Below are positions 12,254-61,916 of a DNA stretch of 64,000 nt, piece by piece. Position numbers and translations under genes: made by a program. This DNA is from an uncultured virus (IMG/VR IMGVR_UViG_3300017963_000256) (Duplodnaviria; Heunggongvirae; Uroviricota; Caudoviricetes): the IMG/VR virus record IMGVR_UViG_3300017963_000256. The stretch is one strand, 5' to 3'. The notes under the pieces were generated by a model. The model did no database searches and was not told the origin of the DNA. It worked only from the letters and a program-made list of their open reading frames with translations. Position 1 is the stretch's first letter; every line of letters begins with the position of its first letter.

Positions 12254-12640
12254 TTATTCAACAATTTTATGTAATTCAACGTTCGCAAGATCTGCTGAAC
12301 TCCATTGAGGCAAAGGCATTGGAACCGGTACATCCCAAACCTTTCTGGCATACCTTAATGCTTCACGAATGGACCTGAAGTATTTTCCAGAAGGAGGATA
12401 GTCATCCGGCATCTTTCTAATTCCGGCAAAATATGATTTCCCATATTCATCAGTAATACTAGGAGAAACCACAATATAATAGGAAGCATTGGATTCTGGA
12501 TCGTCGCCTTCCCACCGGAAATAGCTCATAGGACCGATCTCTTCATCGAATTTTTCCTTCATGAAAAGAGACTTTTTTTTGTAAAGCTCTTTCCATTCGA
12601 TGTTTCGGTCTTTGATTCGTTTGGCAGCTGACTTTTTCAT
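12254..12640 (-). CDS. Hypothetical protein
   Basis: 128 aa, overlaps the portal stop (ATGA coupling). Confidence 0.6.
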   Translation of the reverse strand: MKKSAAKRIKDRNIEWKELYKKKSLFMKEKFDEEIGPMSYFRWEGDDPESNASYYIVVSPSITDEYGKSYFAGIRKMPDDYPPSGKYFRSIREALRYARKVWDVPVPMPLPQWSSADLANVELHKIVE

Positions 12641-14763
12641 TTTTTACCTTTTTTACCCATCTGTTCTCGATATATCTGGGCTTTTTTATTGATGGTATCG
12701 ACAATCTTATTAATGACCGCACCAAACCGATCATTAATTTCTTTGTCCCTAAACCTTAAAACAGTCCATCCTCCTTGAGCCAGCCTAGTATCGCGTTCAC
12801 GATCCCTTTCCAACTGAGAAGGAGAACTATGAAAAGCCTCACCATCACACTCAACTGCAATTTTCAAATCAGGAAAAGCAAAATCCAACTTATAAGGTCC
12901 AACTTCAAATTGCGCAAACTTCCTGTATGGAATCTTGGATTGCATCAATCCTTTATACATTTTCTTTTCAATACTTGTAAACTGTATGATTTTATTTTGC
13001 TGAACTCCCTCTTTTTCCTCATTAGATTGACGCTCTAATTTTCTGCGCTTTTCAGGTTTCATAATCTTCTTTTCAGGAGGGACAGAAGCCGCTGTAGGTG
13101 GAGCGCCCATGTCCATACCGCCTAAGTCTGGAGCACCACCGGCACCCATGTCTGGAGCACCCATGTCACCCGCCATGCCCATGTCTGGAGCACCATCAAG
13201 CGGCGGCATTCCTCCGCCCATATCTCCGCCGATTGGCGCTCCTCCGAAACCACCGCCCATACCACCCATACCACCCATACCACCCATATCACCACCACCG
13301 GGTGCCATCATTGACATGGTAGCCTGCTCGAAGCGGATACGTTCGACTTCCTGATCGTAATCGACATTGACCTTCTCACACAGCGTTTCAGCAGAGATGA
13401 TTTGCTTTTCATGAAGCTGCATGAAGTTCTGGATTTCTTGGTTTTTGTCGCGAAGATTCAAATCATTCCATCTTATTTTCGGGTAAAGATAAATGGTTTC
13501 ACCCAACTCTGCACTGGCTTCTTCATCCACAAACCCCTGCATCTGGGCAATCGGTTTGTAAATGCATTCTTCAATCCAGCGCTTCAGCTGGAGTCTCCAG
13601 TTTTCCATACGCTGAATCATGGTTTCAACACCAATGGCAAGACCAGAATAACTGCCCATTTCACCATTGAGAAGTGCCTGATTCAACATGACACCATCCA
13701 GAACTTCTTGAGCCACATATTCTAACTCATTGGAAATCTGGATGGTTTTACCAGATGCGCCATACCAGTCATATTCGAAAGCATGGTGCGTAATGAGTGT
13801 CAGGTTCGGATCATTGGCAACTGCACCTAACTGTGCCTGCATGTCCGCAATATCCTGAGGACCGGCTGGACGTTCATCGTTACCAACCTTAACGACTCTA
13901 ATAGGAAGAATCATTCTTTCTGCAACAATCCACTGCGCCGTCATCAGCTTATCTTTGTAAGCCAAGGTCTTAAACAGGCGGCGAATCAGTGATGTGCCGT
14001 AAGTCTGGTACGGAGAAGCATTGTGTTTAAGGTGTTTTACGGCGCGATTTGACAGCGGAATAGGCTGACCAGTTGCGACCAGATTCTTAACATTCATCGG
14101 GAGTTTGTCGTAAATCTGACGCGGTGTTTTCTGGAGGACAATTCTTCTAAGTTCGTCATCAGGAGTTAGTGTAACAAGTGGTTCGTCGGCAAGAATATTC
14201 CACTGGACATCGATCCAATCCGGATTGAGAACGAGGATTCTTTTAATTGTTCCATTAGGATGACGACATTTTACAGATGGATTCTCAGGATTTACACCTG
14301 AACCACCACAAATACCGCATTCGAACTCTGTGAATGGAAATACATCGCCAATCAGAAAGTATTCATGTGAAATCATTTGAGTCCAATAATCAAGATTCAA
14401 GCGTTTGGCTGCATTATCAAAGTACATCTTGATTTTTGGATCTGGACACTCGTTTTCAAACCCATTCATTGGGAACATGGCATAGAAGTTAATGGCGGCA
14501 GCTACTTTAGGTTCGTTTTCAAAGTAGTACCGGCACCATTGAGAAACTTCACGGCGCTTAGAGGGAATTTGCCAGTTTTGCGGGGTATGAAGCGGAGAGA
14601 AAAACATGGGCTGAGTGAAAAGCGTGTTTCCACCATAGCCCATTAGGTCTGTCGTACTAGCCGCAGCAGTCTTTATGGATGCTCCCATGTGACTGGTTTT
14701 TACTGTCGCAGCCGACTTGGACCTTTGGAAGTGTCCTTGAATATCTGACGTAATTAAACGCAT
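12637..14763 (-). CDS. Portal protein fused to a C-terminal DUF559/Vsr-like endonuclease
   Basis: Portal-like motifs (EYFLIGDVF, LNPDWIDV, SPYQTYGTSLI), Gly/Met linker, then GPYKLDFAFPDLKIAVECDGEAFH...DRERDTRL...GWTVLRF. Confidence 0.8.
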   Translation of the reverse strand: MRLITSDIQGHFQRSKSAATVKTSHMGASIKTAAASTTDLMGYGGNTLFTQPMFFSPLHTPQNWQIPSKRREVSQWCRYYFENEPKVAAAINFYAMFPMNGFENECPDPKIKMYFDNAAKRLNLDYWTQMISHEYFLIGDVFPFTEFECGICGGSGVNPENPSVKCRHPNGTIKRILVLNPDWIDVQWNILADEPLVTLTPDDELRRIVLQKTPRQIYDKLPMNVKNLVATGQPIPLSNRAVKHLKHNASPYQTYGTSLIRRLFKTLAYKDKLMTAQWIVAERMILPIRVVKVGNDERPAGPQDIADMQAQLGAVANDPNLTLITHHAFEYDWYGASGKTIQISNELEYVAQEVLDGVMLNQALLNGEMGSYSGLAIGVETMIQRMENWRLQLKRWIEECIYKPIAQMQGFVDEEASAELGETIYLYPKIRWNDLNLRDKNQEIQNFMQLHEKQIISAETLCEKVNVDYDQEVERIRFEQATMSMMAPGGGDMGGMGGMGGMGGGFGGAPIGGDMGGGMPPLDGAPDMGMAGDMGAPDMGAGGAPDLGGMDMGAPPTAASVPPEKKIMKPEKRRKLERQSNEEKEGVQQNKIIQFTSIEKKMYKGLMQSKIPYRKFAQFEVGPYKLDFAFPDLKIAVECDGEAFHSSPSQLERDRERDTRLAQGGWTVLRFRDKEINDRFGAVINKIVDTINKKAQIYREQMGKKGKK

Positions 14764-26190: not shown

Positions 26191-26964
26191 TTACATCTCC
26201 TGAAATACTGCTGGCGAAAGCTTAATAGACTCTTGGAAGACATCAGGAAGAATCAGATTTATAAGATCATATTCTTCAAGAAGATCCAAAGTCCTTCTTG
26301 TATCTTTTGCCAACATTTTCAAAACTTCCTTTTCCGCACGTTCATTAGTTACAACGTCAAGAATGCTGTGCGAATATTTTTTCATTGCCTCTGATAGTTC
26401 GGGATCAATCTTAAATCCCAAATAAACTGCAAAACGAAGTGCTCTTAAAATAACTAAAGGATTCTTCTGACACACATAAATTGCCGGAAGAATTGTTCTT
26501 ACAACCTTGTTCTTAATATCCTTTATGCCTTTTCTCGTGATATCAAGAACCTTGCCAGTATGCAAACTCTTCAACAAAGAATTGATTGTAAAGTCTCTAC
26601 TGTACACATCTTTGGTAAGTTGATTTACATCAATTCCAAGTTTCCTCATGATCTCTGTATAACCGCTGGTGTCCATCCACTCGCCTTTGAAGTCAATGTC
26701 AACATCAGCGACTTTGAAATTCAGGGTTCCAGTTCGGTGAAGGATTTTGGGCATATCCTGTCCAAGTTCACCTGCAACCAATCCTCCCAATTCGACAGCG
26801 CGGTTTGGATATATCGATGTAAGGTCGATATCTGACTTTTGCTGCATTTTTCCATAATAGATTTCATCGCGGACTGCACCACCAACGATGTAAATACCAG
26901 ATATCCTGTATTTATTCGCCACATCTCTGATAAATTCGATAGCATCTGCAATTGCCATGGTCAA
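26191..26964 (-). CDS. CCA-adding enzyme/poly(A) polymerase family nucleotidyltransferase
   Basis: YIVGGAVRD, DIDL, SRDFTINSL and ILRALRFA motifs. Confidence 0.85.
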   Translation of the reverse strand: MTMAIADAIEFIRDVANKYRISGIYIVGGAVRDEIYYGKMQQKSDIDLTSIYPNRAVELGGLVAGELGQDMPKILHRTGTLNFKVADVDIDFKGEWMDTSGYTEIMRKLGIDVNQLTKDVYSRDFTINSLLKSLHTGKVLDITRKGIKDIKNKVVRTILPAIYVCQKNPLVILRALRFAVYLGFKIDPELSEAMKKYSHSILDVVTNERAEKEVLKMLAKDTRRTLDLLEEYDLINLILPDVFQESIKLSPAVFQEM

Positions 26965-33402: not shown

Positions 33403-35220
33403 TTAAGAAAATCTGCGGTCATACTGCTGGTGAATTCTAGCCATCGAATTAGAACCAGCCAATGCACTCACTACTCCGCTTCTTGGGAACCGCGTATTGA
33501 CAAGAAATTCTCCTGAAGTTGAAAAATGACAAATGGCTGCAATGCAGTCAGCCGTATCGTCTGTCGGAACTTCTGACTTCAAATTAGGGAAAATCTTCCA
33601 ACCATTTTCCACATACTTAATCCTCAAACCCTTCAACTCATTTTGGATGTAGTAATCCGCATAATATTCCAGATCGCCACGTAAAACAAGTTCCTTCATC
33701 GCCCCATAAATCTGCATCTTAAACTGTTTTCTGAACGGTGTCTTATGAAGCGGAAGGCCATAACGTTTAAGGTTTTGAATCGTCTGTGCTGAATTCCATT
33801 GGTCAAAAGTAATCGCCGCAACATTAAACTTTCTGCAAAGCTGAATAATATATTGTTCAACTTCTCTGATGTTCACCTCTTGACCATCTTTCGGCGTCCA
33901 CCGTTGAGAGTGAACAATATAAACTCTCTTACGTCTTTCCTGATATTCGTTCTGATATTCCTGACAATATCCAAGAACCACGGCATAAACGTGACTTGAA
34001 ACAGCCGGGTCAACGTGCATATAATAAACCCGTCCCTGTTCTCCCTTTTCCTGCCGACATAACATTGACTCACTTTGCGCCTCATCAACCATTTCAGGCG
34101 GCAAGAAAACATTGGATCCAGTATGTGCAAACTGTGCTCCATATTCCATCATGAAAGCATCAGGGTCACGTCGCTCATCAGCCGCCAAACTGTCTCTCGT
34201 AATTGATGGGTTCGCATCCCATGTCGGCAACTGGAACATCAACGACTTTTCATCTTTGTCGCTATCCCTGTATAAATCATAAAACATGCCATCAGGACCA
34301 CTTGGTGAGGAAATGGCAATGATCCTACCATCTGGCCTTGTTGCATCTCCATTCGCCATAAACGTCTTGGTTGAAGGGGCAAGAGCTTTATAAATTTCAT
34401 ACCCAGACTGACCACCAGTGGTGTTTAACATGAAGGCAAGCTCGTCAAACATGATGGTGATAGAACCACGACCACGAAGAGATTCTGAAGACGAGTGACC
34501 ACAAATCAGGATGATTGTACCGGCGAGTTTAATGGGGTTGTCTGGATCTTCGTTTGTTTCTTTGTCACGATCCGTAAAGAGATGAATTTCATCACCTTTG
34601 GTCGAATCCGCATCCAACTTGTCTCTGAAGTAGGGGGCGCGTCTGATACGTGAAATGATTTCGTTAAACAGAACCTTCGCTTGTTTGGTAGAACGGGCAA
34701 CGTTCAGAATAACGATTTCATTATCCTGCGGGAGATTGTAATATTCTTGAGGACAACCACCGGGAAGTTCTAGAAGTTTGTATGATTCGTATGCAGCGAT
34801 GATGGAACAAAGGAAGGTTTTACCACTACGTCTGCCAATGACCAAAATCAAATGGTCAAATAATTTATGTTCTGGTTTTTCTCCGCTTTCAATTGGGAGT
34901 GCCTTGTCCAGAACATAATGAAGTTCTTTTTCTTTAAGCCATTCTTTTTCTACGTCATCCAGCTTTACATTTTCGTTTCCCCGCGATCCCATATAAAAAC
35001 ATTTAAGAATAATTCTCTGGGCAATACGTAGATGGATGTGTTGGTTGGGAAGGTTTAAATAAATGGGGCTTTCACAGAAAGTGATAATATCAACAATGTT
35101 CCGTGACTCTTCAGAAACAGACTCATCAGTATTTGCTTTTCTTTCTTCCTGTTCAATCTGAAGACTTTCTTCTTTCAACTGCTCGATCAGATTGTCGAGA
35201 TGCTCAGCTGTCTTCGCCAT
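33403..35220 (-). CDS. terL: Terminase large subunit
   Basis: Walker A GRRSGKT, Walker B IMFDE, motif III ISSP, nuclease HVDPA...DDTAD. Confidence 0.9.
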   Translation of the reverse strand: MAKTAEHLDNLIEQLKEESLQIEQEERKANTDESVSEESRNIVDIITFCESPIYLNLPNQHIHLRIAQRIILKCFYMGSRGNENVKLDDVEKEWLKEKELHYVLDKALPIESGEKPEHKLFDHLILVIGRRSGKTFLCSIIAAYESYKLLELPGGCPQEYYNLPQDNEIVILNVARSTKQAKVLFNEIISRIRRAPYFRDKLDADSTKGDEIHLFTDRDKETNEDPDNPIKLAGTIILICGHSSSESLRGRGSITIMFDELAFMLNTTGGQSGYEIYKALAPSTKTFMANGDATRPDGRIIAISSPSGPDGMFYDLYRDSDKDEKSLMFQLPTWDANPSITRDSLAADERRDPDAFMMEYGAQFAHTGSNVFLPPEMVDEAQSESMLCRQEKGEQGRVYYMHVDPAVSSHVYAVVLGYCQEYQNEYQERRKRVYIVHSQRWTPKDGQEVNIREVEQYIIQLCRKFNVAAITFDQWNSAQTIQNLKRYGLPLHKTPFRKQFKMQIYGAMKELVLRGDLEYYADYYIQNELKGLRIKYVENGWKIFPNLKSEVPTDDTADCIAAICHFSTSGEFLVNTRFPRSGVVSALAGSNSMARIHQQYDRRFS

Positions 35221-39779: not shown

Positions 39780-40221
39780 CGATCCCGAAACAATCTCAAT
39801 CCCCGACATCATCTATGATGCCAAAGCATTTGGCGTTGGAGAGATGATTATGTTCACTTCCGACAGAGTGGACACAGAACAACTCGACCTTGTGATCGAA
39901 GAAATAGAAAATAGCATTCGTGCCGAAGGTAAAGATGTAATGACCTACGACACCAGAGACAAGATGGTCTATTACAAGGCAAGACCGGGAGGACTCGGTG
40001 CTCTGCAAGACGCGAACTTCGAATATATCAAAAAGTATCGTGCTGCAGGATCTTTCGTGATGCTTCTGGTAGGTCTCACGGAAACCAGAACTCTTTTCGA
40101 CCTTGCCACCTATCTGCAGGCATTCAGCCGTATCGTATTCCTGCAACCATATAGACCTTTTATCGACAAATTATACCACTATCAGGAAACTTACTTCTAC
40201 CAGATATGGCCCAAAGAATGA
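39769..40221 (+). CDS. Hypothetical protein
   Basis: 150-aa coupled ORF. Confidence 0.55.
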   Translation: MAYNDPETISIPDIIYDAKAFGVGEMIMFTSDRVDTEQLDLVIEEIENSIRAEGKDVMTYDTRDKMVYYKARPGGLGALQDANFEYIKKYRAAGSFVMLLVGLTETRTLFDLATYLQAFSRIVFLQPYRPFIDKLYHYQETYFYQIWPKE

Positions 40222-40231
40222 GAGGAAATTC

Positions 40232-42688
40232 ATGCTCCACAAGCTCGACATGCAAACAAAACACATCATTGAAATCAGTCAATCGGAAGCCAAAGCCGTC
40301 AATACCAAATTGATCGAGCCAGAGCATCTCCTTATTGCCATATTAAAAGAAGACTGCTCCGCCTCTATGGTTTTGAGAAAATATAAAGTAAATATCTCCA
40401 ATATCAAACGTGTCATTCGGAAAATGAAGATTTCCAAGACCATTTCGGGGAAAGCCCATCTGAGTGAAAACTGTAAGAAGATCCTCGATCACGCTCTGGA
40501 ATTAATCGTCAAACATGACCATGAAAACATATCTCCAGAGCATCTTTTGTATTCGTTGGTAGCAACCCAAAATCGAGCACGAACCATCATTAATAAACTG
40601 ACGAATTACAAAGTCGTTAAAGAACAAATCCAAAAAGTAATCTTTGACAGAGAACAAGGCCCCGAAGAAGGTATTCACCTACCCCATCACGAAGAAGGTG
40701 GGTACGAGCATGTTCATTCTCAGCCGCGAACCAACAAACGAACAAAAAGGTCAGCCCTCGAAGCTTTCGGCAAGAACCTCACCGAAATGGCAAAACAGAA
40801 CAAATTAGATCCTGTCATTGGGCGAACTGAGGAAATGGGACGCCTTATCAATATCCTCACCAGACGTAAAAAGAACAATCCGGTTCTGGTTGGATATGCC
40901 GGTGTCGGAAAAACATCCATTGTTGAAGGCATTGCCCATGCCATCGCCAAAGGAAATGTCCCTGAAAAACTCAGAAACAAAAAGATCTATTCTATCGATC
41001 TCGGACTCATGGTCGCAGGAACCAAATACCGTGGGCAATTCGAAGAACGAATCAAAGCACTTCTCAAAGAAGTAACTCAAGACAAAGATATCATCATTTT
41101 CCTCGATGAAATCCATACCATCGTGGGCGCAGGAAGCGCAGAAGGTTCACTCGATGCCGCCAATATCATGAAACCTGCTCTCGCCAAAGGTGAGATTAAA
41201 TGCATCGGCGCTACCACCATTAAGGAATACAGGAAATCCATCGAAAAAGACGCCGCCTTGGAAAGACGTTTCCATCCGGTAACGGTTCAGGAAACCTCAA
41301 TCGAAGAAACTTTCACCATCCTGAAAGAACTTCAGCAGAAATACGAAGAACACCACGGTGTCACCATCGGAAACGAATCCATTTATCTTTGCTGTAAGCT
41401 ATCCAAGAAATACATCAATGACCGCTATCTCCCCGATAAAGCCATCGATGTTTTGGACGAAGCTGCCGCCTATGTGTCTTTAGGAAAGACGCAAAACGTT
41501 TCAACACTGAAAGATAAGATCAAAAGAACGGAAAACAAAAGAGATTCCCTATTGAAAGAAGGAAAGTTCAGGGAATTAAATAAAGTTCATAATGAACTAA
41601 AAAGTCTGAACCAAAAGCTCTTCTCAAACGCTATGTCCGAATCCGGTTTTACGGCAATTACTCCCGAAACCGTCAAACTGATCGTCTCTGAAATATCGAA
41701 AATCCCGATCACCGACATCAAAGAAGACGAAAAGGCTAATCTTGCCAACATGGAAAAAGACCTTCAGGAAGTTGTTATCAATCAGAATGAAGCCATTGAT
41801 ATCATCTCCAAGGTTGTTAAAAAATCACGTGTCGGAATGTCCGATCCCAAACGTCCTATCGGTTCGTTCATGTTTGTCGGTGCAACTGGCGTTGGTAAAA
41901 CTCACATAGCCAAACAGCTTGCCAAAATCATGTTTGGTTCAGAAGAGGCTCTCGTTCAAGTCAACATGAGCGAGTACATGGAGAAACATTCAGTCAGCAA
42001 AATGATTGGATCTCCTCCCGGTTACGTTGGCTATGAAGATGCCGGTCAGCTTACCGAAATGATCAGACGCCGTCCCTATTCCGTCATTCTTCTGGACGAA
42101 ATCGAAAAGGCACATCCCGAACTGCTGAATGTCCTGCTTCAAGTGTTTGAAGAAGGTGAACTGACTGACAATATGGGCAGGAAAACCAGCTTCAAAAACA
42201 GCATCATCATTATGACTTCCAATGTTGGCGTCAAAGAAATGAACCAGAAATCGGTTGGATTTGGCAAACACAACAATGCCACAGACGCAAAACATAAGGT
42301 TCAAGCCGCCATTAAAGATGCCTTCAGACCGGAATTCATTAACAGACTTGACAATATCGTCTTCTTCAACAAACTCTCAAAAGATGATATTTCCAAGATC
42401 GTTGAACTGGAAGTAAAACCTCTTATCGAAAAACTCAATGAAATTAACATCAAAGCCATTGTTCACGACAATGCCATCGAGTTTATCGCAAACACGGTAA
42501 ATCCTGATGAATTTGGCGCAAGACCAGTGAAAAGAGCCATCGCAACATTGTTAGAAGACAAGATAACAGACCTCATCTTGGAAGAAAAAATTCCCGCCAG
42601 TTCTACCATCAACATCAAGGTAGTAAAAGGGGAGTTAAGTGTAGTTCCTAAAAGGAAATACACACGCAGGAAAAAAGAAGGAAATTGA
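40232..42688 (+). CDS. clpC: ClpC-like AAA+ chaperone
   Basis: Clp-N repeats (PEHLL), LDPVIGR, GVGKT x2, [23 protein letters not shown]. Confidence 0.9.
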
Positions 42689-50861: not shown

Positions 50862-50936
50862 TTTAAGTTAAGGCATCGAGAATGAGGCATAAGCCTCTTA
50901 GACGCCAAATAAACCCTTTTATAAGGAGCAAAAACC

Positions 50937-51359
50937 ATGCTGGCTCTCAACCCTATTTTCAAAAGAAGCGGCTTATTTCCGTCCCTAGAGCGCGATTTCG
51001 ACGGTCTCTTCGGATCTTTAGCCTCAAATGACTTTGCGCCGCAAATAAGTTGCAAAAGCGACGAAAAACAACTCACCATCAAAGCCGAAATCCCCGGTAT
51101 CGATGAAAAGGATGTTGAACTCACAATCCAAGATGACATCCTGACCATCAAGGGCGAAAAGAAAAAAGAGCAGGAAGTCAAGGATGATGACTATTACTTC
51201 TCAGAATGCAAATACGGTTCATTCGACCGTTCTATCCGCATCCCAGATGACACCAATATTGACAAGGCAACGGCAACCTTCAAGAACGGTGTCCTCGAAA
51301 TCACCATGCCGAAAAAAGAGGAAAAAAAACCTAAAAAAATCAACGTGAAAATCAAATAA
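50937..51359 (+). CDS. Hsp20/alpha-crystallin small heat-shock protein
   Basis: AEIPGID...LTIKGEK...YGSFDRSI...ATFKNGVLEITMPK. Confidence 0.92.
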   Translation: MLALNPIFKRSGLFPSLERDFDGLFGSLASNDFAPQISCKSDEKQLTIKAEIPGIDEKDVELTIQDDILTIKGEKKKEQEVKDDDYYFSECKYGSFDRSIRIPDDTNIDKATATFKNGVLEITMPKKEEKKPKKINVKIK

Positions 51360-51361
51360 CT

Positions 51362-51372
51362 ACGTATAATAA
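51362..51372 (+). promoter_or_regulatory. ACGTATAATA promoter-like box upstream of the tRNA
   Basis: Recurring motif ~10 nt before the tRNA 5' end. Confidence 0.6.
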
Positions 51373-51381
51373 GTAAGTAGA

Positions 51382-51455
51382 GCGCTCGAAGCTCAATTGG
51401 CTGAGCGGGGAGACTCTAAATCTTCCGGTTGTGGGTTCGAACCCCACCGGGCGCA
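51382..51455 (+). tRNA. Amber suppressor tRNA (anticodon CUA), no encoded CCA
   Basis: Acceptor GCGCTCG/CGGGCGC plus A; D arm GCTC/GAGC; anticodon arm GGGAGA-CTCTAAA-TCTTCC; T arm GTGGG-TTCGAAC-CCCAC. Confidence 0.85.
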
Positions 51456-51489
51456 ATTCACTTTTAACCCTTTTTATAGGAGAAGCACC

Positions 51490-51561
51490 ATGAGAACGCC
51501 TTTCTGGTAGGTGTTTAATAGCAGACCCCCTCCGGTCGTTGTTTTTCATCCGTCTTTTTAA
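51490..51561 (+). CDS. Putative leader peptide with in-frame amber codon: MRTPFW*VFNSRPPPVVVFHPSF
   Basis: AGGAG at 51478-51482, ATG 51490, TAG 51508-51510, AGA CCC CCT CCG at 51523-51534, TAA 51559-51561. Confidence 0.55.
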
Positions 51562-51590
51562 CCCAAACATTTCTTTTACGGAGAAAAACA

Positions 51591-52067
51591 ATGACTATTT
51601 CAATCATCGATTTTATTCGTTTCCGCGTTCAGTTTTGCAGTGACAAAATCTTTCAGATCAAAAAAGATGCCCTAGAAAGTCGAACGGCATATCGCTACGG
51701 TTACGTCGATAAGAAAACCGGCGAACGTGCCACCGTCCAATCCGACAGTAATGACACGGTGTGGGATCGCTATCCCTACACCACATTCGACTCTCACATC
51801 TGCCCAACCCATCCCAAATGGAATGAGTACAAGGGTCTGAAAAGACAGGTCTCATTATGGATTGCCGCCCTCCACGTGGCAAAAGACAATGAGCACACCG
51901 AGAAGTATCACAACGTCTCTTTGAAAGACGCCAGACAGCAGTTCAAACACGCCATGGGTCAGTTCAAAGACATGGTTCCCAGTCAAAAGTCTGCCCTTAC
52001 CAAATGGGTAGAAGAACGTGAAAAGGAGCGCGAAAATGCAAAGAAAAATGTATCTGCTTGTGCTTGA
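51591..52067 (+). CDS. Hypothetical protein coupled to the Pth2-like gene
   Basis: 158 aa, GGAG ribosome-binding site; overlaps the next gene. Confidence 0.65.
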   Translation: MTISIIDFIRFRVQFCSDKIFQIKKDALESRTAYRYGYVDKKTGERATVQSDSNDTVWDRYPYTTFDSHICPTHPKWNEYKGLKRQVSLWIAALHVAKDNEHTEKYHNVSLKDARQQFKHAMGQFKDMVPSQKSALTKWVEEREKERENAKKNVSACA

Positions 52068-52365
52068 TTCTTTGTCACCCGCTCAGCAAATCGTTCAAGC
52101 AGCACATGTGACCGCTGAATTTGTCTATCACTTTGATGACAGGGAAGATGTGTCTGACTGGCTTACGAACCATCAAACAATGGTCGTACTGGGCGTTAAC
52201 GAAAAAGAACTTGGGGATTGGGAATACCGCCTCGACCGCAGGCAAATCCCTTTCCACACGTTCTATGAACCTGACGTGGACAAACACACCGCCTTAGCCG
52301 TCGTCGTAGACGGCAATGGCGCTAAAATGTTCCGCAAACTGCCAATGATTCAAGGAGACGACTGA
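52036..52365 (+). CDS. Pth2-like peptidyl-tRNA hydrolase
   Basis: KMYLLV..LS..QQIVQAAH...W.....MVVL...F.EPD...TALA. Confidence 0.75.
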   Translation: MQRKMYLLVLDSLSPAQQIVQAAHVTAEFVYHFDDREDVSDWLTNHQTMVVLGVNEKELGDWEYRLDRRQIPFHTFYEPDVDKHTALAVVVDGNGAKMFRKLPMIQGDD

Positions 52366-52718
52366 TGGAGAAATTCAAGATTTATCTGATCGAAGCAAGC
52401 ACCGGCTGTACATGCTGTGCGTCAGAGAACCACATGCGGGGTCCGTTTAGGACTGAAGAGGACGCCAAACGGCGCATCGAGTATTACCATAACAGTCCCA
52501 GAGAAACGGGATACTGGCCTCTGGCGTCTCAATATGCTCGTCGCGGCAGATATAGCGTTGAGGAATACGAGGTCGAACCGATCAGCGATGACCGATTCAT
52601 TCTAGGTGAAGAAAAGGTTTTGGATAGCCTGAACTTCATCGATGTAAATGAAGACGGGACCATCAAGCAAGATAGTGACGCAGAATGGTTTGGCAGTGAC
52701 AATCTTTTCGGTTGGTGA
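52365..52718 (+). CDS. Hypothetical protein
   Basis: 117 aa, GCTCC motif, TGATG coupling. Confidence 0.6.
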   Translation: MEKFKIYLIEASTGCTCCASENHMRGPFRTEEDAKRRIEYYHNSPRETGYWPLASQYARRGRYSVEEYEVEPISDDRFILGEEKVLDSLNFIDVNEDGTIKQDSDAEWFGSDNLFGW

Positions 52719-52725
52719 GCACCAA

Positions 52726-52760
52726 TAAAAAAAAGGACGGGCGTAATGCCCGTCCTTTTT
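52726..52760. terminator. Bidirectional terminator
   Basis: A run, GGACGGGC-GTAAT-GCCCGTCC, T run. Confidence 0.9.
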
Positions 52761-52776
52761 GTGTTTGAAATGGATC

Positions 52777-54999
52777 TTATTTCATGAAGCATCTGATGAA
52801 ACAAGTAGAACTATCTGAACCGCCACCACCTCCAGCCGGAACAGGCTCCCCTTCACCTCCGCCATTTGCTTTGCGCATTTCTTCCTGATGGTAGGTTTCC
52901 AAATCATCAACCAACTGACTGAAATCGCCTTCCTCAAGGAAAATCTGCTCATTCCCATCGGTGACCGTCACACACCCGTCCAAGATCAACATCTGATTAT
53001 TGATCTCTTGGAGTTCCTGCTGAGAGACTGGGTCAAGTTCGTAGTACTCACCATTCATGAGATCCATCATTTCTTCAGCCTCATCGCCTTCAAAGATCTT
53101 TTCGACCCCATCGATGGTCACTTTCATGGCGGCAATACATGCCTCTGTTCCAATAGCATAGGTGACAGAGCCTGCAATCAAAGCCGCGCCACCAGCCCCT
53201 ATGATCTCGCAACCAATGATAAGGTAAGGATGCCCCGCCTTCGAACACCAGTAGGCACTGACGTAAGAAAAAGTATAAGCGCCGACCGCATAAGAAGCAG
53301 CAAATGCTCCGACTTTGCAGGGGATTACTTCAGGCTCACTAGTAGCCAGATCGTAAGCAAAATAGACCTCGCCGCCATGTCTCAAGGCGAAAAAGGCATC
53401 GTCCATAGCGATCATGCCTTTTTTCATGAACCACTGAGTCCACTGTTTATGAAATGACGGATTGGCACTTACTTTCGTAACCCTCAGACGATAACTGTGT
53501 TTAATCGAAGCCCTTTTAGCATCGTCGAGAGTCATATGCGGCTCCTGCAACTTATCGTAATATTGCAGAAAGTAAGTGTCAAACTGAGAGGCACTTTCAG
53601 AAGGATTCAAGTTGTCAATTACCTCAACCCATCCCTTTCCGGTGTGTTCAACAAGGTATCCGGAAGCCGCTACAAGGTTCCCGTTGTTAACCGAATATGT
53701 CACCTTCGCTCCAGTCGGACCATGCTGAACCAGACGAACATCATCTGCAGAAGCCATCATGGAATTGATTTTGGATATCTCGATTCTGTTGGATATCTTC
53801 TTATGATTTCCATGACTGTCCTGTACAATGCTGTTGTATGCTTTAACATCAAGGTTGTGGATTTCATGAGCACGTGTGTTGGAGGGACGAATATGATCGC
53901 TCCGATGCCCTGCATCCAAATGGAGATACTTAAAATCTTGGATATGGTAACGGATGATCGGTTTCGCCTGCTTATCCGTGAAGACCCATTCGAAATAGTA
54001 CGTGTATTTGATTTCGCCGCCTATCAAAGCCTTACGTCTGGCTAAACGAAATTCAACGGTCGCATGATCGTTATCAAGCGCCTTGTAATACTTTCCGGGG
54101 GTCTCGTAGTCCTTTCCCTTGATGGCTTTGAAGTCACTTTCCTGAACGCTATCAAGGTATTGCTGAAGTTCCACGCTCTCCTGTGCGGTTTTCACCGTTT
54201 CGAACAACCCATGTTTGGAGGCAAAATCACTCCACAGGAACACAGCAACGTGCGACCACAGGAATTCATCTTCGCTGAGATCCTCGATTACGACATAGTC
54301 AAAATGCTCTTCTTCGACCACATCGTCCTCTACCGGTTCAGGAGTATCATCAACAACTTCCTCGTCCTGTGATCCATTGTCAACGAAAACTTCTTCGCTA
54401 TCATCGTCGTCGTTATCCTCAGGTTCTTCGCCGTCTTCATTCATATCAAAAGAAAACGATCTATACCCTTGGGGAGACCTTCTGTAGCCGTCGTCATCGG
54501 CATACGGGGCTGAACTGACAAGATCCCACGCTGAATTGCAATCGACGCCCTGAATCCAGACCCGAAAATCTTCTTCAGAACGCACACGGATGGTCAATTC
54601 CAAAGTGTCCCCGTCTTCAGCATCATACAGATACACTTCAGCTAGATAATCATCCAATTCAAACGTATCACCATCTGGATCCCACGCCATATCGCCCGGT
54701 TCTAACTCGTAATAATTGTCATAATCGTCGAGATCGCCTCTGATTTCTACTTCATCGGCATCCCCTTCCACCATGCATTTGACATGAAGAAAGTCGCTAC
54801 CATCCCCGCGATAACGGATTTCTACACGGATATCCACGTACCCATCCGTATAGAATTCCAGTTCATCACGGTCGTCCACATCTTCCCACTCATAGTCCGT
54901 CTTTGCGGATCGAACCTCAACACTGACAATCTCAACCCGCGCCAAAACCGTCGTGGTCATGAAAAGCATAACCGTCACTGCTATCAGCCATCGCAACAT
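52777..54999 (-). CDS. Secreted/surface protein with a CFI-box-CTERM-like tail
   Basis: Signal peptide MLRWLIAVTVMLFMTTTVLA; Gly/Ala-rich hydrophobic helices; ends GGGGGSDSSTCFIRCFMK. Confidence 0.65.
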   Translation of the reverse strand: MLRWLIAVTVMLFMTTTVLARVEIVSVEVRSAKTDYEWEDVDDRDELEFYTDGYVDIRVEIRYRGDGSDFLHVKCMVEGDADEVEIRGDLDDYDNYYELEPGDMAWDPDGDTFELDDYLAEVYLYDAEDGDTLELTIRVRSEEDFRVWIQGVDCNSAWDLVSSAPYADDDGYRRSPQGYRSFSFDMNEDGEEPEDNDDDDSEEVFVDNGSQDEEVVDDTPEPVEDDVVEEEHFDYVVIEDLSEDEFLWSHVAVFLWSDFASKHGLFETVKTAQESVELQQYLDSVQESDFKAIKGKDYETPGKYYKALDNDHATVEFRLARRKALIGGEIKYTYYFEWVFTDKQAKPIIRYHIQDFKYLHLDAGHRSDHIRPSNTRAHEIHNLDVKAYNSIVQDSHGNHKKISNRIEISKINSMMASADDVRLVQHGPTGAKVTYSVNNGNLVAASGYLVEHTGKGWVEVIDNLNPSESASQFDTYFLQYYDKLQEPHMTLDDAKRASIKHSYRLRVTKVSANPSFHKQWTQWFMKKGMIAMDDAFFALRHGGEVYFAYDLATSEPEVIPCKVGAFAASYAVGAYTFSYVSAYWCSKAGHPYLIIGCEIIGAGGAALIAGSVTYAIGTEACIAAMKVTIDGVEKIFEGDEAEEMMDLMNGEYYELDPVSQQELQEINNQMLILDGCVTVTDGNEQIFLEEGDFSQLVDDLETYHQEEMRKANGGGEGEPVPAGGGGGSDSSTCFIRCFMK

Positions 55000-58222: not shown

Positions 58223-58500
58223 TTATTTTCTCCCAACTTCTTAACTAACTGATCCATCGCCTCTATAATAGGCATGGACTCCCATTTTCTTTTTTCCATG
58301 ACTGCCAACATCTCACAAGGACCCAAACCGCCACGCTCTGCCAACCGCTGTAATGTCTGACCGCCATGATTCCGTTTTGCCGTCTCTTCATCCAATAATT
58401 CCATCGAAACAGAATCCGGATACTTCCAGAGATCAGTCCGTAGTTTCCTTTTGTTAAAATAATCGATAAGAATTGGCATTTCTTTGTACATGTTTTTCAC
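58219..58500 (-). CDS. Hypothetical phage protein
   Basis: NHGGQTLQRLAERGGL motif; coupled ORF. Confidence 0.6.
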   Translation of the reverse strand: MKNMYKEMPILIDYFNKRKLRTDLWKYPDSVSMELLDEETAKRNHGGQTLQRLAERGGLGPCEMLAVMEKRKWESMPIIEAMDQLVKKLGENK

Positions 58501-58805
58501 TTATATAATTTCAGTTCTTTGAAAAAAGGATCCCACTCTTTCCGTGGCTTAAACACCATAGCCACTTCCTGATTCCCCAAAGTGGATTCCGTAATAACCC
58601 TATGATCCTTTAAAAAAGATGCTCTCAAATACTCTGATTTATCGACTTTGCATACAACCTTCTTGAACGACACTTCCATCCATTCCTGAACGTCCCTGTC
58701 ATCAAACCATTCAAGATATGCAATCAGAGAGGCATGCGCTACTGCAACAATCGCATTCCCCACCGGAATATCATCTTTAACCAGAATATACATTTTCATC
58801 TTCAT
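58497..58805 (-). CDS. Pth2-like peptidyl-tRNA hydrolase (second copy)
   Basis: KMYILVK.DIP.G....AHASL...W...FKKVVCKV...FKPR. Confidence 0.75.
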   Translation of the reverse strand: MKMKMYILVKDDIPVGNAIVAVAHASLIAYLEWFDDRDVQEWMEVSFKKVVCKVDKSEYLRASFLKDHRVITESTLGNQEVAMVFKPRKEWDPFFKELKLYK

Positions 58806-61232: not shown

Positions 61233-61916
61233 TCAGGTGATTCCTGCATGAAATTTGTCAAATAACCTCTCATAGATGTTGTTCCAATCCGCATCAGGAT
61301 ACTTCTCCTTAGACTTCTCGCACAGGAACTTCGCCGCCTCCTCACCTTGTTTTTCGTCCAAATTATAGTCGGGGTAAAGCTTTTTCATTTCCCGCATAAT
61401 ATTTTCATCAAGAGCAATATCATCATAAATCTTCTGTGGTAACTCAAAATCAGGCTTCTCAGACTTCTCAATGTCTTCTACCGTTAGATTGGGTTCCCAA
61501 TTCTCCAACATTCTTTCTATAATGTCCTGAGTTACACCATGAGTATTCCGCTTTGCCAACTCCTCTGCATCAAATCTCCACGGCGTCTCCGCTTCACGAA
61601 TCTCGATCTCATAACCATTCTTCTTCGCCATATCCACATATTCTTTGGCTTCCCATGCCCGAACATTCGTATTGTCAATCACAACGGGAGAAATTCCTTT
61701 TTCTACTGCGTCCTGTGCCCTCTGACGAGTCCAATCATGGGCTTCCTGCATCTTGTCAGGAATAAACTCGTATTCCCCATCCTGTTCCCAAAAATCATCC
61801 GTACTCAATATAACGCCGCCTTCTCCAAGTTCTTTTGCCAACGTGGACTTCCCTGATCCAGAAACACCACGCATAATAATCATCTTTTTCTCTTGGGCGA
61901 CTTTATACCAATTCAT
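61233..61916 (-). CDS. P-loop kinase (AAA_33 / N4BP2-like polynucleotide kinase) with MNWYKVAQ leader
   Basis: RGVSGSGKST, STDDF, VIDNTN, RNTHGV. Confidence 0.85.
   Translation of the reverse strand: MNWYKVAQEKKMIIMRGVSGSGKSTLAKELGEGGVILSTDDFWEQDGEYEFIPDKMQEAHDWTRQRAQDAVEKGISPVVIDNTNVRAWEAKEYVDMAKKNGYEIEIREAETPWRFDAEELAKRNTHGVTQDIIERMLENWEPNLTVEDIEKSEKPDFELPQKIYDDIALDENIMREMKKLYPDYNLDEKQGEEAAKFLCEKSKEKYPDADWNNIYERLFDKFHAGIT

What the first reader, a model, noticed from the sequence alone, without database searches (positions are those of the whole stretch)
51362..52365. Amber-suppressor tRNA, amber-interrupted RPPP leader peptide and Pth2: a candidate readthrough/stalling sensor module
Seen: one plus-strand run containing a promoter box, tRNA(CUA), then ~35 nt later a ribosome-binding site and the ORF ATG AGA ACG CCT TTC TGG TAG GTG TTT AAT AGC AGA CCC CCT CCG...TAA. 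An unknown 158-aa gene and a Pth2-like hydrolase follow. The RPPP motif is translated only if the TAG is read through. Known: polyproline and R-x-P-P motifs slow or arrest ribosomes, leader peptides control downstream genes, and Pth recycles peptidyl-tRNA. Inference: the leader reports competition between amber suppression and RF1 termination, and couples it to expression of the rescue genes or supplies their substrate.
Basis: partly seen in the sequence, partly recalled or inferred. Interest (0 to 1): 0.88.

Follow-up and report, generated by a model that had tools for sequence, protein, structure and literature searches.

The report
Stop-codon-gated leader switch in phage
A large phage carries its own UAG-reading tRNA followed by a tiny leader gene whose built-in UAG stop most likely lets the next genes, including a peptidyl-tRNA hydrolase relative, be made only when that tRNA works; many related phages keep the design.

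Summary
The tRNA(CUA) lies at 51382-51455. A Shine-Dalgarno-led mini-ORF starts 34 nt later as MRTPFW-TAG. Read-through adds VFNSRPPPVVVFHPSF. The extension runs through the 5' arm of a 19-bp helix (-22.2 kcal/mol, z -4.9) that hides the ribosome-binding site and AUG of the 158-aa gene. A protein with the Pth2 fold follows.

In 91 non-redundant loci with Pth2-like genes, 39 carry a same-strand tRNA(CUA). Of the 73 with enough upstream DNA, 36 have a leader of the form ATG, a few codons, TAG, a few codons, Pro-Pro; the opposite strand gives 1 of 73. Many of these leaders end R-G/A-P-P-stop, a known ribosome-arrest motif.

TAG is about 29 times denser in leaders than in long ORFs. In two lineages whose tRNA reads TAA, the gate codon is TAA.

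Best reading (about 0.7): a translational switch that opens only when the stop codon is suppressed. It works like RAPP arrest leaders, but the trigger is new. I found no paper describing it. Other reports of this scan describe the same design in other genomes. No experiment exists. The amino acid carried by the tRNA, the 158-aa protein's role and the reason for the Pth2 link remain open.

The parts
51365..51370 (+). TATAAT, a -10-like box 11 nt before the tRNA
   Evidence: Read. The consensus scan did not call it a full sigma-70 promoter. Relatives have TTGAC-N17-TATA(A/T)(A/T) boxes before the tRNA or leader.
51382..51455 (+). tRNA with anticodon CUA (amber suppressor type). CCA is not encoded and the amino acid it carries is unknown.
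   Evidence: ARAGORN. Rfam RF00005, 52.4 bits, E 1.7e-9. Its nearest look-alikes are the tRNA(CUA) genes of other module loci, L234 and L240.
51478..51482 (+). Shine-Dalgarno sequence AGGAG of the leader, 7 nt before its ATG
   Evidence: Sequence.
51490..51510 (+). Leader ORF up to its gate: MRTPFW, then TAG at 51508-51510
   Evidence: The same build occurs in 35 distinct leaders of related loci.
51511..51561 (+). Read-through part of the leader: VFNSRPPPVVVFHPSF, then TAA. The R-P-P-P codons lie at 51523-51534.
   Evidence: Sequence. RxPP with x = G, A, S or P is described as arrest-inducing (PMC12992588, section 7).
51479..51533 (+). Predicted hairpin 1. The leader's own SD pairs with CUCC in the Pro codons, and its AUG pairs with the UGG-UAG region.
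   Evidence: MFE fold of 51456-51600: -37.6 kcal/mol, z -4.79, 0 of 200 shuffles as good. This hairpin is the weaker part of that fold.
51534..51596 (+). Hairpin 2: a 19-bp helix with one bulge. The 5' arm (51534-51553) lies inside the read-through frame. The 3' arm (51578-51596) holds the SD GGAG (51580-51583) and AUG (51591) of the 158-aa gene.
   Evidence: -22.2 kcal/mol, z -4.91, 0 of 200 shuffles. With the first 12 nt of the 5' arm removed, only -3.9 kcal/mol remains (z +0.48).
51591..52067 (+). 158-aa gene of unknown family, at the 'partner' position before the Pth2-like gene
   Evidence: ORF. No Pfam or PHROG family. One relative in 5.8 billion clusters, at 71% identity. AF2 pLDDT 76, no fold match.
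52036..52365 (+). Pth2-like (peptidyl-tRNA hydrolase 2 fold) gene. It overlaps the end of the 158-aa gene and has its own SD, AAGGAG.
52365..52718 (+). 117-aa ORF, last gene of the unit. Its start overlaps the Pth2-like stop.
   Evidence: ORF. Weak DUF7336 match below the cut-off.
52730..52760 (.). Two-way terminator-like hairpin that closes the unit
   Evidence: It is the only terminator-like site on the + strand between 51362 and 52900.

Best explanation
This is a translational switch gated by stop-codon suppression. One transcript most likely carries the tRNA(CUA), the leader, the 158-aa gene, the Pth2-like gene and a 117-aa gene.

A ribosome that starts on the leader meets UAG at codon 7. 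If release factor wins, the ribosome leaves after six residues. The 19-bp helix then keeps the Shine-Dalgarno sequence and AUG of the 158-aa gene closed.

If the phage's tRNA(CUA) reads the UAG, the ribosome goes on to R-P-P-P, where it probably pauses or arrests. With the Pro codons in its P and A sites, it covers the first 11-12 nt of the helix's 5' arm. Whether it stays there or moves on to the TAA in the loop, the helix collapses and other ribosomes can start on the 158-aa gene. The overlapping Pth2-like gene follows by coupling.

Shown here: the sequence parts, the helix, the family-wide conservation of the leader, its link to suppressor tRNAs, and the match between gate codon and anticodon. 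Inferred: read-through in vivo, arrest at the Pro-Pro motif, and the effect on expression.

Why Pth2 is the regulated gene is also inference. Either suppression of host stop codons creates extra stalled or dropped-off peptidyl-tRNA that needs recycling, or the enzyme resolves the arrested leader complex itself.
For: **1. Anatomy in the window.**
- SD-led ATG 34 nt after the tRNA, TAG at codon 7, RPPP five codons later.
- Helix 51534-51596 at -22.2 kcal/mol, z -4.91, 0 of 200 shuffles. It falls to -3.9 kcal/mol when the first 12 nt of the 5' arm are taken away.
- No terminator-like site lies between the tRNA and 52739 on the + strand.

**2. Conservation.**
- Two relatives found through their tRNA(CUA) have the same order of tRNA, leader, a 125-129-aa gene and a Pth2-like gene. 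Their leaders are MT-TAG-VLTIKGFT-TAG-VIRGPP-stop (L093) and MRNKQL-TAG-QVRGPP-stop (L117).
- In the combined set, 36 of 73 loci have a leader on the gene strand against 1 of 73 on the opposite strand.
- In the viral set alone, 11 of 22 loci have one, against a mean of 0.75 loci (maximum 4) in 200 shuffles.

**3. Selection on the peptide.** The 35 leaders use 14 different Pro-Pro codon pairs. Arg is encoded by AGA, CGA or CGC in the window, L093 and L117.

**4. TAG is a selected feature.** Leaders hold 44 TAG in 520 codons. ORFs of 200 codons or more hold 117 in 40,576.

**5. The gate codon matches the linked tRNA.**
- L225, L305 and L306, which carry tRNA(UUA), have MIKVTDN-TAA-VPSLHDPP-TAG. 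Homologous leaders elsewhere use TAG (L323, L277).
- L321, which carries tRNA(UUA), has MLHFF-TAA-IARARGPP.

**6. SD masking.** In 14 of 17 leaders folded, the MFE structure pairs the next gene's SD with sequence 1-25 nt after the first Pro codon.

**7. A second gate in relatives.** 14 of 91 Pth2-like ORFs have TAG within their first 10 codons (examples). L093's has an internal TAG.

**8. Literature.** RAPP and RGPP are robust, EF-P-refractory arrest motifs. RxPP with x = G, A, S or P is arrest-inducing (PMC12992588, abstract and sections 7 and 8).

**9. Weak hint of transcription.** One 208-nt contig from an RNA library covers 51446-51653 without a difference.
Against: - No experiment and no ribosome data exist. 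The RNA contig may be DNA carry-over.
- The window's motif is RPPP, which the cited mutagenesis rates as only partly permissive. Arg at -2 is present in only 10 of 35 leaders, so strict RAPP-type arrest cannot be general.
- 37 of 73 loci with enough upstream DNA have no pattern hit.
- CCUCC in the Pro codons is itself an anti-SD sequence, so part of the Pro-Pro conservation could be selection on RNA.
- Overall fold z-scores are significant for the window, L117 and L222 but not for most other leaders.
- The shuffle control for the SD-pairing count was not run.
- Only one close relative of the window's own gene pair exists, and its DNA could not be fetched.
- The window's 158-aa protein is not detectably related to the partner proteins of other loci.
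Confidence: 0.7

Rival explanations
1. RNA-only switch. The mini-ORF really ends at UAG, and the RxPP region is never translated. A ribosome waiting at the UAG (slow RF1 release) covers the CCUCC-type anti-SD sequence a few codons downstream and so opens the next gene's start. The signal is termination speed, not suppression.
For: In several leaders the Pro-Pro codons lie only 2-4 codons after the TAG, within reach of a ribosome paused at the stop (MS-TAG-TRPP, MKY-TAG-QRPP). CCUCC of the Pro codons pairs with the downstream SD in L093, L117 and L251.
Against: - The Pro-Pro frame is always that of the ATG-TAG ORF and stays free of TAA and TGA.
- The 35 leaders use 14 synonymous Pro-Pro codon pairs, including CCA CCC, which is no anti-SD sequence.
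- 22 of 35 frames end with a stop directly after Pro-Pro.
- Some leaders have two in-frame TAGs.
- The gate changes to TAA where the tRNA is UUA, and the final stop is then TAG.
- In the window the masking arm starts 24 nt after the TAG, beyond a ribosome at the stop.
Confidence: 0.1
2. Processing element with a chance ORF. The 19-bp helix is an RNase III-type or tRNA 3'-processing site that separates the tRNA from the mRNA. The mini-ORF and its TAG and RPPP have no role.
For: - A long helix directly after a tRNA in a tRNA-mRNA co-transcript is what a processing site would look like.
- The leader pattern alone occurs in 47 of 100 shuffled windows.
- The tRNA needs 3' trimming and CCA addition, and a CCA-adding enzyme is encoded at 26191-26964.
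Against: - Leaders are kept in loci that have no tRNA next to them and sit behind promoter-like boxes.
- The strand asymmetry is 36 against 1.
- TAG is enriched about 29-fold in leaders.
- The gate codon matches the anticodon.
- The helix covers exactly the SD and AUG of the next gene.
Confidence: 0.06
3. Minigene that feeds the enzyme. The short ORF is a bar-like minigene whose main product is a short peptidyl-tRNA that drops off. It serves as substrate or decoy for the Pth2-like enzyme, or starves the host of a tRNA, and does not control downstream translation.
For: - The leaders are 2-13 codons up to the TAG and 7-28 codons in all.
- Short nascent chains are prone to drop-off, and lambda bar minigenes are toxic when Pth is limiting (recalled knowledge, not from a call).
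- The neighbour is a Pth2-fold protein.
Against: This reading does not explain the SD-masking helix or the pairing of the SD with sequence just after the Pro codons in 14 of 17 leaders. It is compatible with the best explanation as an added role.
Confidence: 0.07
4. Ordinary sense codon. The phage reads TAG as an amino acid throughout, so the TAG in the leader is one sense codon among many. The leader is a plain arrest peptide without a gate.
For: Phages that recode TAG and carry tRNA(CUA) are common (passages of bioRxiv 10.1101/2021.08.26.457843 and PMC13037316). TAG is a rare stop in the window, 5 of 75 ORFs.
Against: - In the 64-kb window, which holds the capsid, portal and terminase genes, 0 of 17 TAGs with open flanks have coding flanks on both sides. 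The standard code gives intact long genes.
- At 0.29 TAG per 100 codons in long ORFs, it would not happen by chance that each of 35 short leaders holds a TAG before Pro-Pro.
Confidence: 0.05

Closest known systems
RAPP/RGPP-type regulatory arrest peptides (ApdA, ApdP, ApcA; SecM with RAGP). Sources: PMC12992588; PMC10951233, PMC7897499 and PMC10987492 seen as listing only.
   Same: - A short ORF upstream of the regulated gene.
- A C-terminal R-(A/G/P)-P-P core, often right at the end.
- An mRNA helix that hides the downstream start and overlaps the stall site.
   Different: - The leaders here have 7-28 codons, no signal or membrane segment, and no link to Sec or YidC.
- The motif is reached only after one or two in-frame stop codons.
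- Arg is often replaced (KSPP, HDPP, NGPP).
- The regulated genes are a Pth2-fold protein and an unknown partner.
- The setting is a phage.
prfB (RF2) autoregulation through an in-frame UGA, and tnaC (recalled knowledge)
   Same: The outcome at one stop codon early in a reading frame reports the state of the decoding machinery and sets the expression of a translation factor.
   Different: In prfB the alternative to termination is a +1 frameshift within the gene itself. Here the alternative is read-through by a dedicated suppressor tRNA in a separate leader that acts through an SD-masking helix.
Engineered amber-codon leader switches (TAG placed in the trp or tna leader peptides; passages of PMC6412442)
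   Same: [quoted passage not shown]
   Different: Those are man-made and act on transcription (rut site or attenuator). This one is natural, acts on translation initiation, and adds a Pro-Pro stall motif.
Code-change modules and suppressor tRNAs of stop-codon-recoded phages (bioRxiv 10.1101/2021.08.26.457843); tRNA(CUA) genes of standard-code jumbo phages such as XacN1 (PMC5852040)
   Same: A phage-encoded tRNA(CUA), with expression of some genes proposed to depend on it. XacN1 carries two tRNA(CUA) genes whose targets its authors could not find.
   Different: In recoded phages the TAGs are spread through late genes. Here the long genes use the standard code, and the visible client is one regulatory mini-ORF. 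'Hydrolase' and 'leader' do not occur in the preprint's text.
PTH2 genes of jumbo phages (PMC7824862, passages) and lambda bar minigenes with host Pth (recalled)
   Same: An archaeal/eukaryotic-type peptidyl-tRNA hydrolase encoded by large phages, and mini-ORFs tied to peptidyl-tRNA turnover.
   Different: That paper links PTH2 to rescue after tRNA cleavage. The word 'suppressor' does not occur in it. No gated leader or tRNA(CUA) linkage is described.

Membership tests
RAPP-type ribosome arrest peptide | C-terminal core R-A/G-P-P, with Arg irreplaceable | tested here: inconclusive
   The window has R-P-P-P, and x = P is rated partly permissive (PMC12992588 section 7). Relatives have RGPP (L093, L117, L222, L242, L262, L281, L321) and RAPP (L223, L241). 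Only 10 of 35 leaders have Arg at -2.
RAPP-type ribosome arrest peptide | Ribosome stalls with the third and fourth motif codons in the P and A sites | not testable with these tools
   This needs toeprinting or in vitro translation.
RAPP-type ribosome arrest peptide | Encoded just upstream of the regulated gene, whose start is masked by mRNA structure that the stalled ribosome opens | tested here: met
   Window helix 51534-51596. The SD pairs 1-25 nt after the first Pro codon in 14 of 17 leaders. No shuffle control was run for that count.
RAPP-type ribosome arrest peptide | Secretory or membrane N-terminal part, with arrest released by the localisation machinery it monitors | tested here: not met
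   The leader has 23 codons at most and no hydrophobic segment. The downstream genes are not Sec or YidC.
Pth2 (PF01981) peptidyl-tRNA hydrolase | Pth2 fold | tested here: met
   AF2 pLDDT 89.8. Foldseek matches 2zv3, 3erj, 1wn2, 1q7s and 1xty at TM 0.75-0.81, with 14 matches at E <= 0.001.
Pth2 (PF01981) peptidyl-tRNA hydrolase | Sequence membership above the curated threshold | tested here: inconclusive
   Pfam gives 23.0 bits against a cut-off of 23. Relatives score 20-22 bits or give no hit. The family profile matches PDB Pth2 sequences at E 5.8e-6.
Pth2 (PF01981) peptidyl-tRNA hydrolase | Catalytic residues and hydrolase activity | not tested
   The family's invariant residues are Q17, V20, Q21, H24, F76 and T85. 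In the alignment to 2zv3, the enzyme's G-K-x-x-A-Q-G-G-H stretch aligns with Q-Q-I-V-Q-A-A-H. I did not map published catalytic residues.
Amber suppressor tRNA | Cloverleaf tRNA with anticodon CUA | tested here: met
Amber suppressor tRNA | Is charged and reads UAG in vivo | not testable with these tools
   The isotype is unclear. The best non-suppressor look-alikes are Lys(UUU) and an Arg(UCU) with the same acceptor stem.
Stop-codon-recoded (code 15) phage | In-frame TAG in many conserved genes | tested here: not met
   0 of 17 candidate TAGs in the window have coding flanks on both sides. The structural genes are intact under table 11. The rest of the genome is not held.

The most novel reading that the evidence does not exclude
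The leader is a monitoring substrate for the enzyme it controls. Read-through of the gate codon loads a ribosome with a short Pro-Pro-arrested peptidyl-tRNA. The Pth2-like protein, perhaps with its partner, releases that complex and so shuts the switch again. This would keep hydrolase activity matched to the level of stop-codon suppression.

More broadly, large standard-code phages would run a small 'suppression regulon' whose gate codon co-evolves with the anticodon of their own suppressor tRNA. That would be a natural orthogonal translational switch, and it would answer what suppressor tRNAs are for in phages that have not recoded their genes.
Probability: 0.25. Interest if true: 0.9.

Novelty: new variant of a known kind. 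Interest (0 to 1): 0.84.

Why it matters
- Suppressor tRNAs are common in large phages that use the normal genetic code, and their targets have been a puzzle. The XacN1 authors could find none. This module offers concrete, testable targets.
- It would be a natural case of gene control by stop-codon suppression, a principle so far known from engineered switches.
- It would extend RAPP-like arrest leaders to phages, to very short peptides and to a new input signal.
- It ties Pth2-fold proteins functionally to suppression.
- The parts are small and portable, so the claim can be tested with simple reporters in laboratory strains.

Tried and rejected
**Searches for the genome and for close relatives**
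- No whole genome is held for the window.
- GenBank phages gave no relative of 50900-53000.
- Single-protein scans of IMG/VR for the 158-aa protein gave 0 relatives, and for the Pth2-like protein gave 1 weak locus.
- A 20-nt stretch of the tRNA found nothing in IMG/VR.
- Among 38 records of capsid relatives, the 158-aa protein was found in 0 of 38. The tRNA-leader DNA gave only short chance or T-arm matches.
- P0003 was found only in G008 and G013, 2 of 38.
- A strict tRNA(CUA) pattern over 31 records missed tRNAs that ARAGORN finds, so it says nothing about co-occurrence.

**tRNA and partner protein**
- The tRNA isotype could not be settled.
- The 158-aa protein has no Pfam or PHROG family and no fold match.
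- It shows no relation to the partner family A5 (hhalign probability 0.1) or to L093's 125-aa protein (E 1.1).
- The Atlas look-up did not complete twice.

**Other clients of the tRNA in the window**
- In-frame TAG in long genes: none.
- Other amber-gated gene starts: five candidates, none convincing.

**Sequencing runs**
- Four runs laid on 51200-52800 showed no sequence variants, so they give no test of conservation.

I left it out. The 14 of 17 therefore stands without a simulated background.
- L257 has tRNA(UUA). RGPP lies in a frame with an in-frame TAA but no canonical start codon, so it was left uncounted.
- L286 is too short to judge.
- One translation request failed on wrong coordinates.
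Full report
**What is in the window**

The window comes from a large phage. It holds:
- a major head protein gene (825-1694, minus strand);
- a portal gene (12637-14763);
- a large terminase gene (33403-35220);
- a ClpB-like ATPase gene (40103-42688);
- a CCA-adding enzyme gene (26191-26964);
- a polynucleotide-kinase-like gene (61233-61916).

Capsid relatives in IMG/VR include records of 296 and 476 kb. CheckV completeness figures for the fragments point to genomes of several hundred kb.

The standard code fits the window. Long ORFs are intact. Of 75 greedy ORFs, 39 end in TAA, 31 in TGA and 5 in TAG. None of the 17 TAGs with 40 or more open codons on both sides has coding-like flanks on both sides.

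**The observation**

- TATAAT lies at 51365-51370.
- The tRNA with anticodon CUA lies at 51382-51455. ARAGORN found it and Rfam scores it at 52.4 bits. It is the only tRNA in the window and has no encoded CCA.
- AGGAG lies at 51478-51482.
- The ATG lies at 51490, followed by MRTPFW and TAG at 51508-51510.
- In the same frame come VFNSRPPPVVVFHPSF and TAA at 51559-51561.
- A 158-aa ORF (51591-52067) follows, then an overlapping 109-aa ORF (52036-52365), then a 117-aa ORF (52365-52718).
- The only terminator-like site on this strand is the two-way hairpin at 52730-52760.

The 109-aa protein is a true member of the Pth2 fold.
- Pfam PTH2 scores 23 bits, at the cut-off.
- It matches phrog_3668 and phrog_1866.
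- A profile of ten family members matches the sequences of solved Pth2 proteins, best 2zv3 at E 5.8e-6.
- An AlphaFold model (pLDDT 89.8) matches archaeal Pth2 and human Bit1 at TM 0.75-0.81.

The RNA from 51456 to 51600 folds far better than shuffles: -37.6 kcal/mol, z -4.79. The main element is a 19-bp helix. By itself it gives -22.2 kcal/mol, z -4.91, with 0 of 200 shuffles as good.
- Its 3' arm (51578-51596) is the Shine-Dalgarno sequence and AUG of the 158-aa gene.
- Its 5' arm (51534-51553) starts at the last base of the third Pro codon, so it lies wholly inside the read-through part of the leader frame.
- The leader's TAA lies in the loop.

A ribosome released at the UAG never reaches the helix. 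A ribosome that reads through must unwind it.

If the first 12 nt of the 5' arm are taken away, only -3.9 kcal/mol of structure is left, no better than shuffles. That is roughly what a ribosome would cover with the Pro codons in its P and A sites; the footprint size is recalled knowledge.

**Is it conserved?**

Close relatives are scarce. The 158-aa and Pth2-like proteins each have one relative in 5.8 billion clusters, at 71% and 66% identity. Both have a longest contig of 5,280 nt, so they are probably on one contig. I could not fetch its DNA.

More distant relatives gave the answer, by three routes.

*Route 1, capsid relatives.* The large records G013 and G008 (82% capsid identity) carry a tRNA(CUA). 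On its strand come, in order:
- a TTGACA-17-TATAAT box;
- the tRNA;
- an SD-led mini-ORF MT-TAG-VLTIKGFT-TAG-VIRGPP-TGA;
- a 125-aa ORF;
- a Pth2-like ORF with an in-frame TAG.

That Pth2-like ORF aligns with the window's over its whole length (E 5e-8).

*Route 2, a pattern scan for tRNA(CUA)-like sequences in IMG/VR* (118 loci; the scan stopped at 22 of 64 parts).
- It gave 67 distinct tRNA(CUA) contexts.
- 9 of these have an SD-led ATG ORF with an in-frame TAG starting within 200 nt.
- 3 of these continue to RxPP or PPP: the window, L093 and L117.
- L117 has the same gene order, and its leader is MRNKQL-TAG-QVRGPP-TAA.

*Route 3, scans with an alignment of the Pth2-like proteins.* These gave 30 viral loci and 80 metagenome loci.

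Figures for the combined non-redundant set:
- 91 loci hold the Pth2 motif, and 39 of them hold a same-strand tRNA(CUA) (42 on either strand).
- Of the 73 with at least 700 nt upstream, 36 have a leader within 1 kb upstream on the gene strand. The leader form is ATG, 0-13 codons, TAG, optionally a second TAG, up to 10 codons, then Pro-Pro.
- On the opposite strand the count is 1 of 73.
- Among the 22 non-redundant viral loci, the stricter SD-requiring pattern hits 11 forward and 1 reverse. Block shuffles give a mean of 0.75 loci and a maximum of 4 in 200.
- The 35 distinct leaders start 393-694 nt before the Pth2 motif, leaving room for one 100-160-aa gene. One or two of them, such as L243, are probably spurious.
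- 27 of 35 have an SD, and 22 end with a stop directly after Pro-Pro.
- The residue two before the first Pro is Arg in 10 leaders. The residue just before it is Gly in 11.
- The residue after the first TAG is Val or Ile in 23.

Loci without a pattern hit include variants ending Ser-Pro-stop (L231, L234), one with RGPP before the TAG (L219/220), and loci in which the Pth2-like ORF itself begins M-x-TAG. TAG lies within the first 10 codons of 14 of the 91 Pth2-like ORFs.

**Peptide or RNA?**

CCUCC in the Pro codons is complementary to a Shine-Dalgarno sequence. In L093, L117 and L251 it is predicted to pair with the next gene's SD. Part of the conservation could therefore act on RNA.

Three observations argue that the frame is translated.
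- The Pro-Pro pair is written with 14 different codon pairs in the 35 leaders, including CCA CCC.
- Arg is AGA, CGA or CGC in the window, L093 and L117.
- The frame from the ATG through the TAG to Pro-Pro is always free of TAA and TGA.

Both kinds of selection may hold at once. In 14 of 17 leaders that I folded, the MFE structure pairs the downstream SD with sequence 1-25 nt after the first Pro codon, where a ribosome held at Pro-Pro would sit. The 17 were the window, L093, L117 and L221 plus 13 others chosen by hand from those known at that point. L227, L241 and L219 were left out. The three misses are L221, L230 and L236. I have no shuffle background for this count. The target stretch is roughly a fifth to a third of each folded region, so 14 of 17 is well above a naive expectation.

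**Is the TAG a gate?**

- Leaders hold 44 TAG in 520 codons (8.5%).
- ORFs of 200 codons or more in the same loci, read through TAG on both strands, hold 117 in 40,576 (0.29%).

The strongest single result is a match between gate codon and tRNA.
- In L225, L305 and L306 the linked tRNA has anticodon UUA. Their leader is MIKVTDN-TAA-VPSLHDPP, closed by TAG.
- Clearly homologous leaders elsewhere read MKKVTDN-TAG-TLSQHDPP-TGA (L323) and MKVTDN-TAG-INSNHDPP (L277).
- In L321, also with tRNA(UUA), the leader is MLHFF-TAA-IARARGPP.
- A third tRNA(UUA) locus, L257, is ambiguous, and a fourth, L286, is too short.

**How it most likely works**

The evidence fits a switch that opens only when the stop codon is suppressed.
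1. Termination at the gate leaves the downstream start closed.
2. Read-through brings a ribosome onto a Pro-Pro motif, where it pauses or arrests.
3. The ribosome sits on or next to the masking sequence, and the next gene's start opens.

RAPP and RGPP are reported as the most robust arrest cores, refractory to EF-P. Arg is reported as irreplaceable. Gly in place of Ala is fully permissive, and Pro, Ser or Asp partly so. RxPP with x = G, A, S or P was found in random-library screens (PMC12992588: abstract, section 8, section 7).

The window's RPPP is thus a weaker member. Its frame goes on for eight codons through the helix arm, so either stalling or simple passage would open the helix.

Many relatives end Pro-Pro-stop without Arg. 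Slow termination after C-terminal proline (recalled knowledge) may serve the same end there.

Shown: the parts, the helix, the conservation, the tRNA linkage and the gate-anticodon match. Inferred: read-through, stalling and the regulatory effect.

One 208-nt contig from an RNA library covers 51446-51653 exactly. This is a weak hint of a transcript running from the tRNA's 3' end into the 158-aa gene, and it may be DNA carry-over.

**Why Pth2?**

This is open. One possibility is that suppression of host UAG stops sends ribosomes into 3' regions and raises the load of stalled or dropped-off peptidyl-tRNA. Another is that the enzyme releases the arrested leader complex itself, which would make the leader a monitoring substrate in the sense of SecM. 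I rate the second at about 0.25.

The gene between leader and Pth2 is not one family.
- The window's 158-aa protein has no family and no fold match (model pLDDT 76).
- It has no detectable relation to the partner family of eight other loci.
- Those eight share a conserved Y-N-x-I-R-G ... R-G-F-T-P stretch and also have no Pfam family.

**Comparison with what is known**

The module works like RAPP-type arrest leaders. It fails one of their defining features: it has no secretory or membrane part and no Sec/YidC link. It also adds a stop-codon gate.

It resembles prfB and tnaC (recalled) in reading out the fate of one stop codon. It resembles engineered switches in which TAG is placed in the trp or tna leaders (PMC6412442, passages).

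Suppressor tRNAs in recoded phages are described (bioRxiv 10.1101/2021.08.26.457843; PMC13037316), and so are PTH2 genes in jumbo phages (PMC7824862). In the passages and term counts I saw:
- the preprint does not use 'hydrolase' or 'leader';
- PMC13037316 does not use 'peptidyl-tRNA hydrolase' or 'Pth';
- PMC7824862 does not use 'suppressor';
- PMC12992588 does not use 'phage', 'amber' or 'readthrough';
- the XacN1 paper states that no targets for its two tRNA(CUA) genes could be found (PMC5852040).

Six full-text searches returned no paper describing such a module. The library lacks most subscription journals, and I saw no supplements, so this is not proof of absence.

Within this scan, other agents have reported the same design in other genomes (e1-5911500, e1-5778575, e1-4040081 and e1-5749954). 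These are unchecked AI notes, not independent evidence. They do mean that this window is one more member rather than the first sighting.

**Verdict**

- Confidence that this is a suppression-gated translational switch is about 0.7.
- It is a new variant of a known kind of control. It is not found in print, it is widespread in large phages, and it can be tested directly with reporters.

Noticed in passing
window 58497-58805 (-): A second Pth2-like paralogue (102 aa; phrog_1866 at E 3e-9; 26% identical to the first in alignment A1). It lies inside a minus-strand gene row with no leader or TAG gate visible.
   Followed up: partly
window 26191-26964 (-) and 51455: The tRNA(CUA) gene lacks an encoded CCA, whereas most relatives' tRNA(CUA) genes have it. 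The phage encodes a tRNA nucleotidyltransferase (phrog_2244, E 2.5e-29), which would be needed to finish the tRNA.
   Followed up: no
L221, L227, L228, L230, L231, L240, L241 and metagenome loci L280, L289, L296, L328 (starts of the Pth2-like ORFs): The Pth2-like ORF itself begins M-x-TAG or has TAG within its first few codons (14 of 91 loci). This would be a second, direct amber gate on the enzyme. L093's copy has an internal TAG.
   Followed up: partly
L225/L305/L306 and L321: These loci have a tRNA with anticodon UUA instead of CUA, and their leaders are gated by TAA. In L225 the leader is then closed by TAG.
   Followed up: yes
L255, L256, L258, L262, L281, L284, L301, L302, L308, L315, L322: In many metagenome loci the tRNA(CUA) lies directly after the Pth2-like gene rather than before the leader. 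The linkage holds in either order.
   Followed up: no
L223, L224, L236, L237, L228 (about 30-70 nt before the leaders): A shared promoter-like box, TTGAC-N17/18-TATATACT, precedes the leaders where no tRNA is adjacent. A ribose-phosphate pyrophosphokinase gene lies upstream in L223, and an HNH endonuclease gene lies downstream of the Pth2-like gene in L223 and L237.
   Followed up: partly
window 2326-7983 (-): A 1885-aa protein whose first ~220 residues match head-maturation-protease-like PHROGs. The rest has no family.
   Followed up: no
window 50937-51359 (+), 40103-42688 (+): Phage-encoded chaperones: Hsp20 directly before the tRNA, and a ClpB-like ATPase (phrog_4871, E 4e-245).
   Followed up: no
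window 52777-54999 (-): A 740-aa, very acidic protein with a Gly-rich tail. It converges on the module's terminator and has no family.
   Followed up: no
window 51446-51653: A 208-nt contig from a metatranscriptome library (coded run X9) matches exactly. It spans the tRNA's 3' end, the leader and the start of the 158-aa gene.
   Followed up: partly
G008 and G013 (IMG/VR records of capsid relatives): These relatives carry 60 and 45 tRNA genes in arrays, whereas the 64-kb window has only the suppressor tRNA. IMG/VR labels both records 'provirus'.
   Followed up: no
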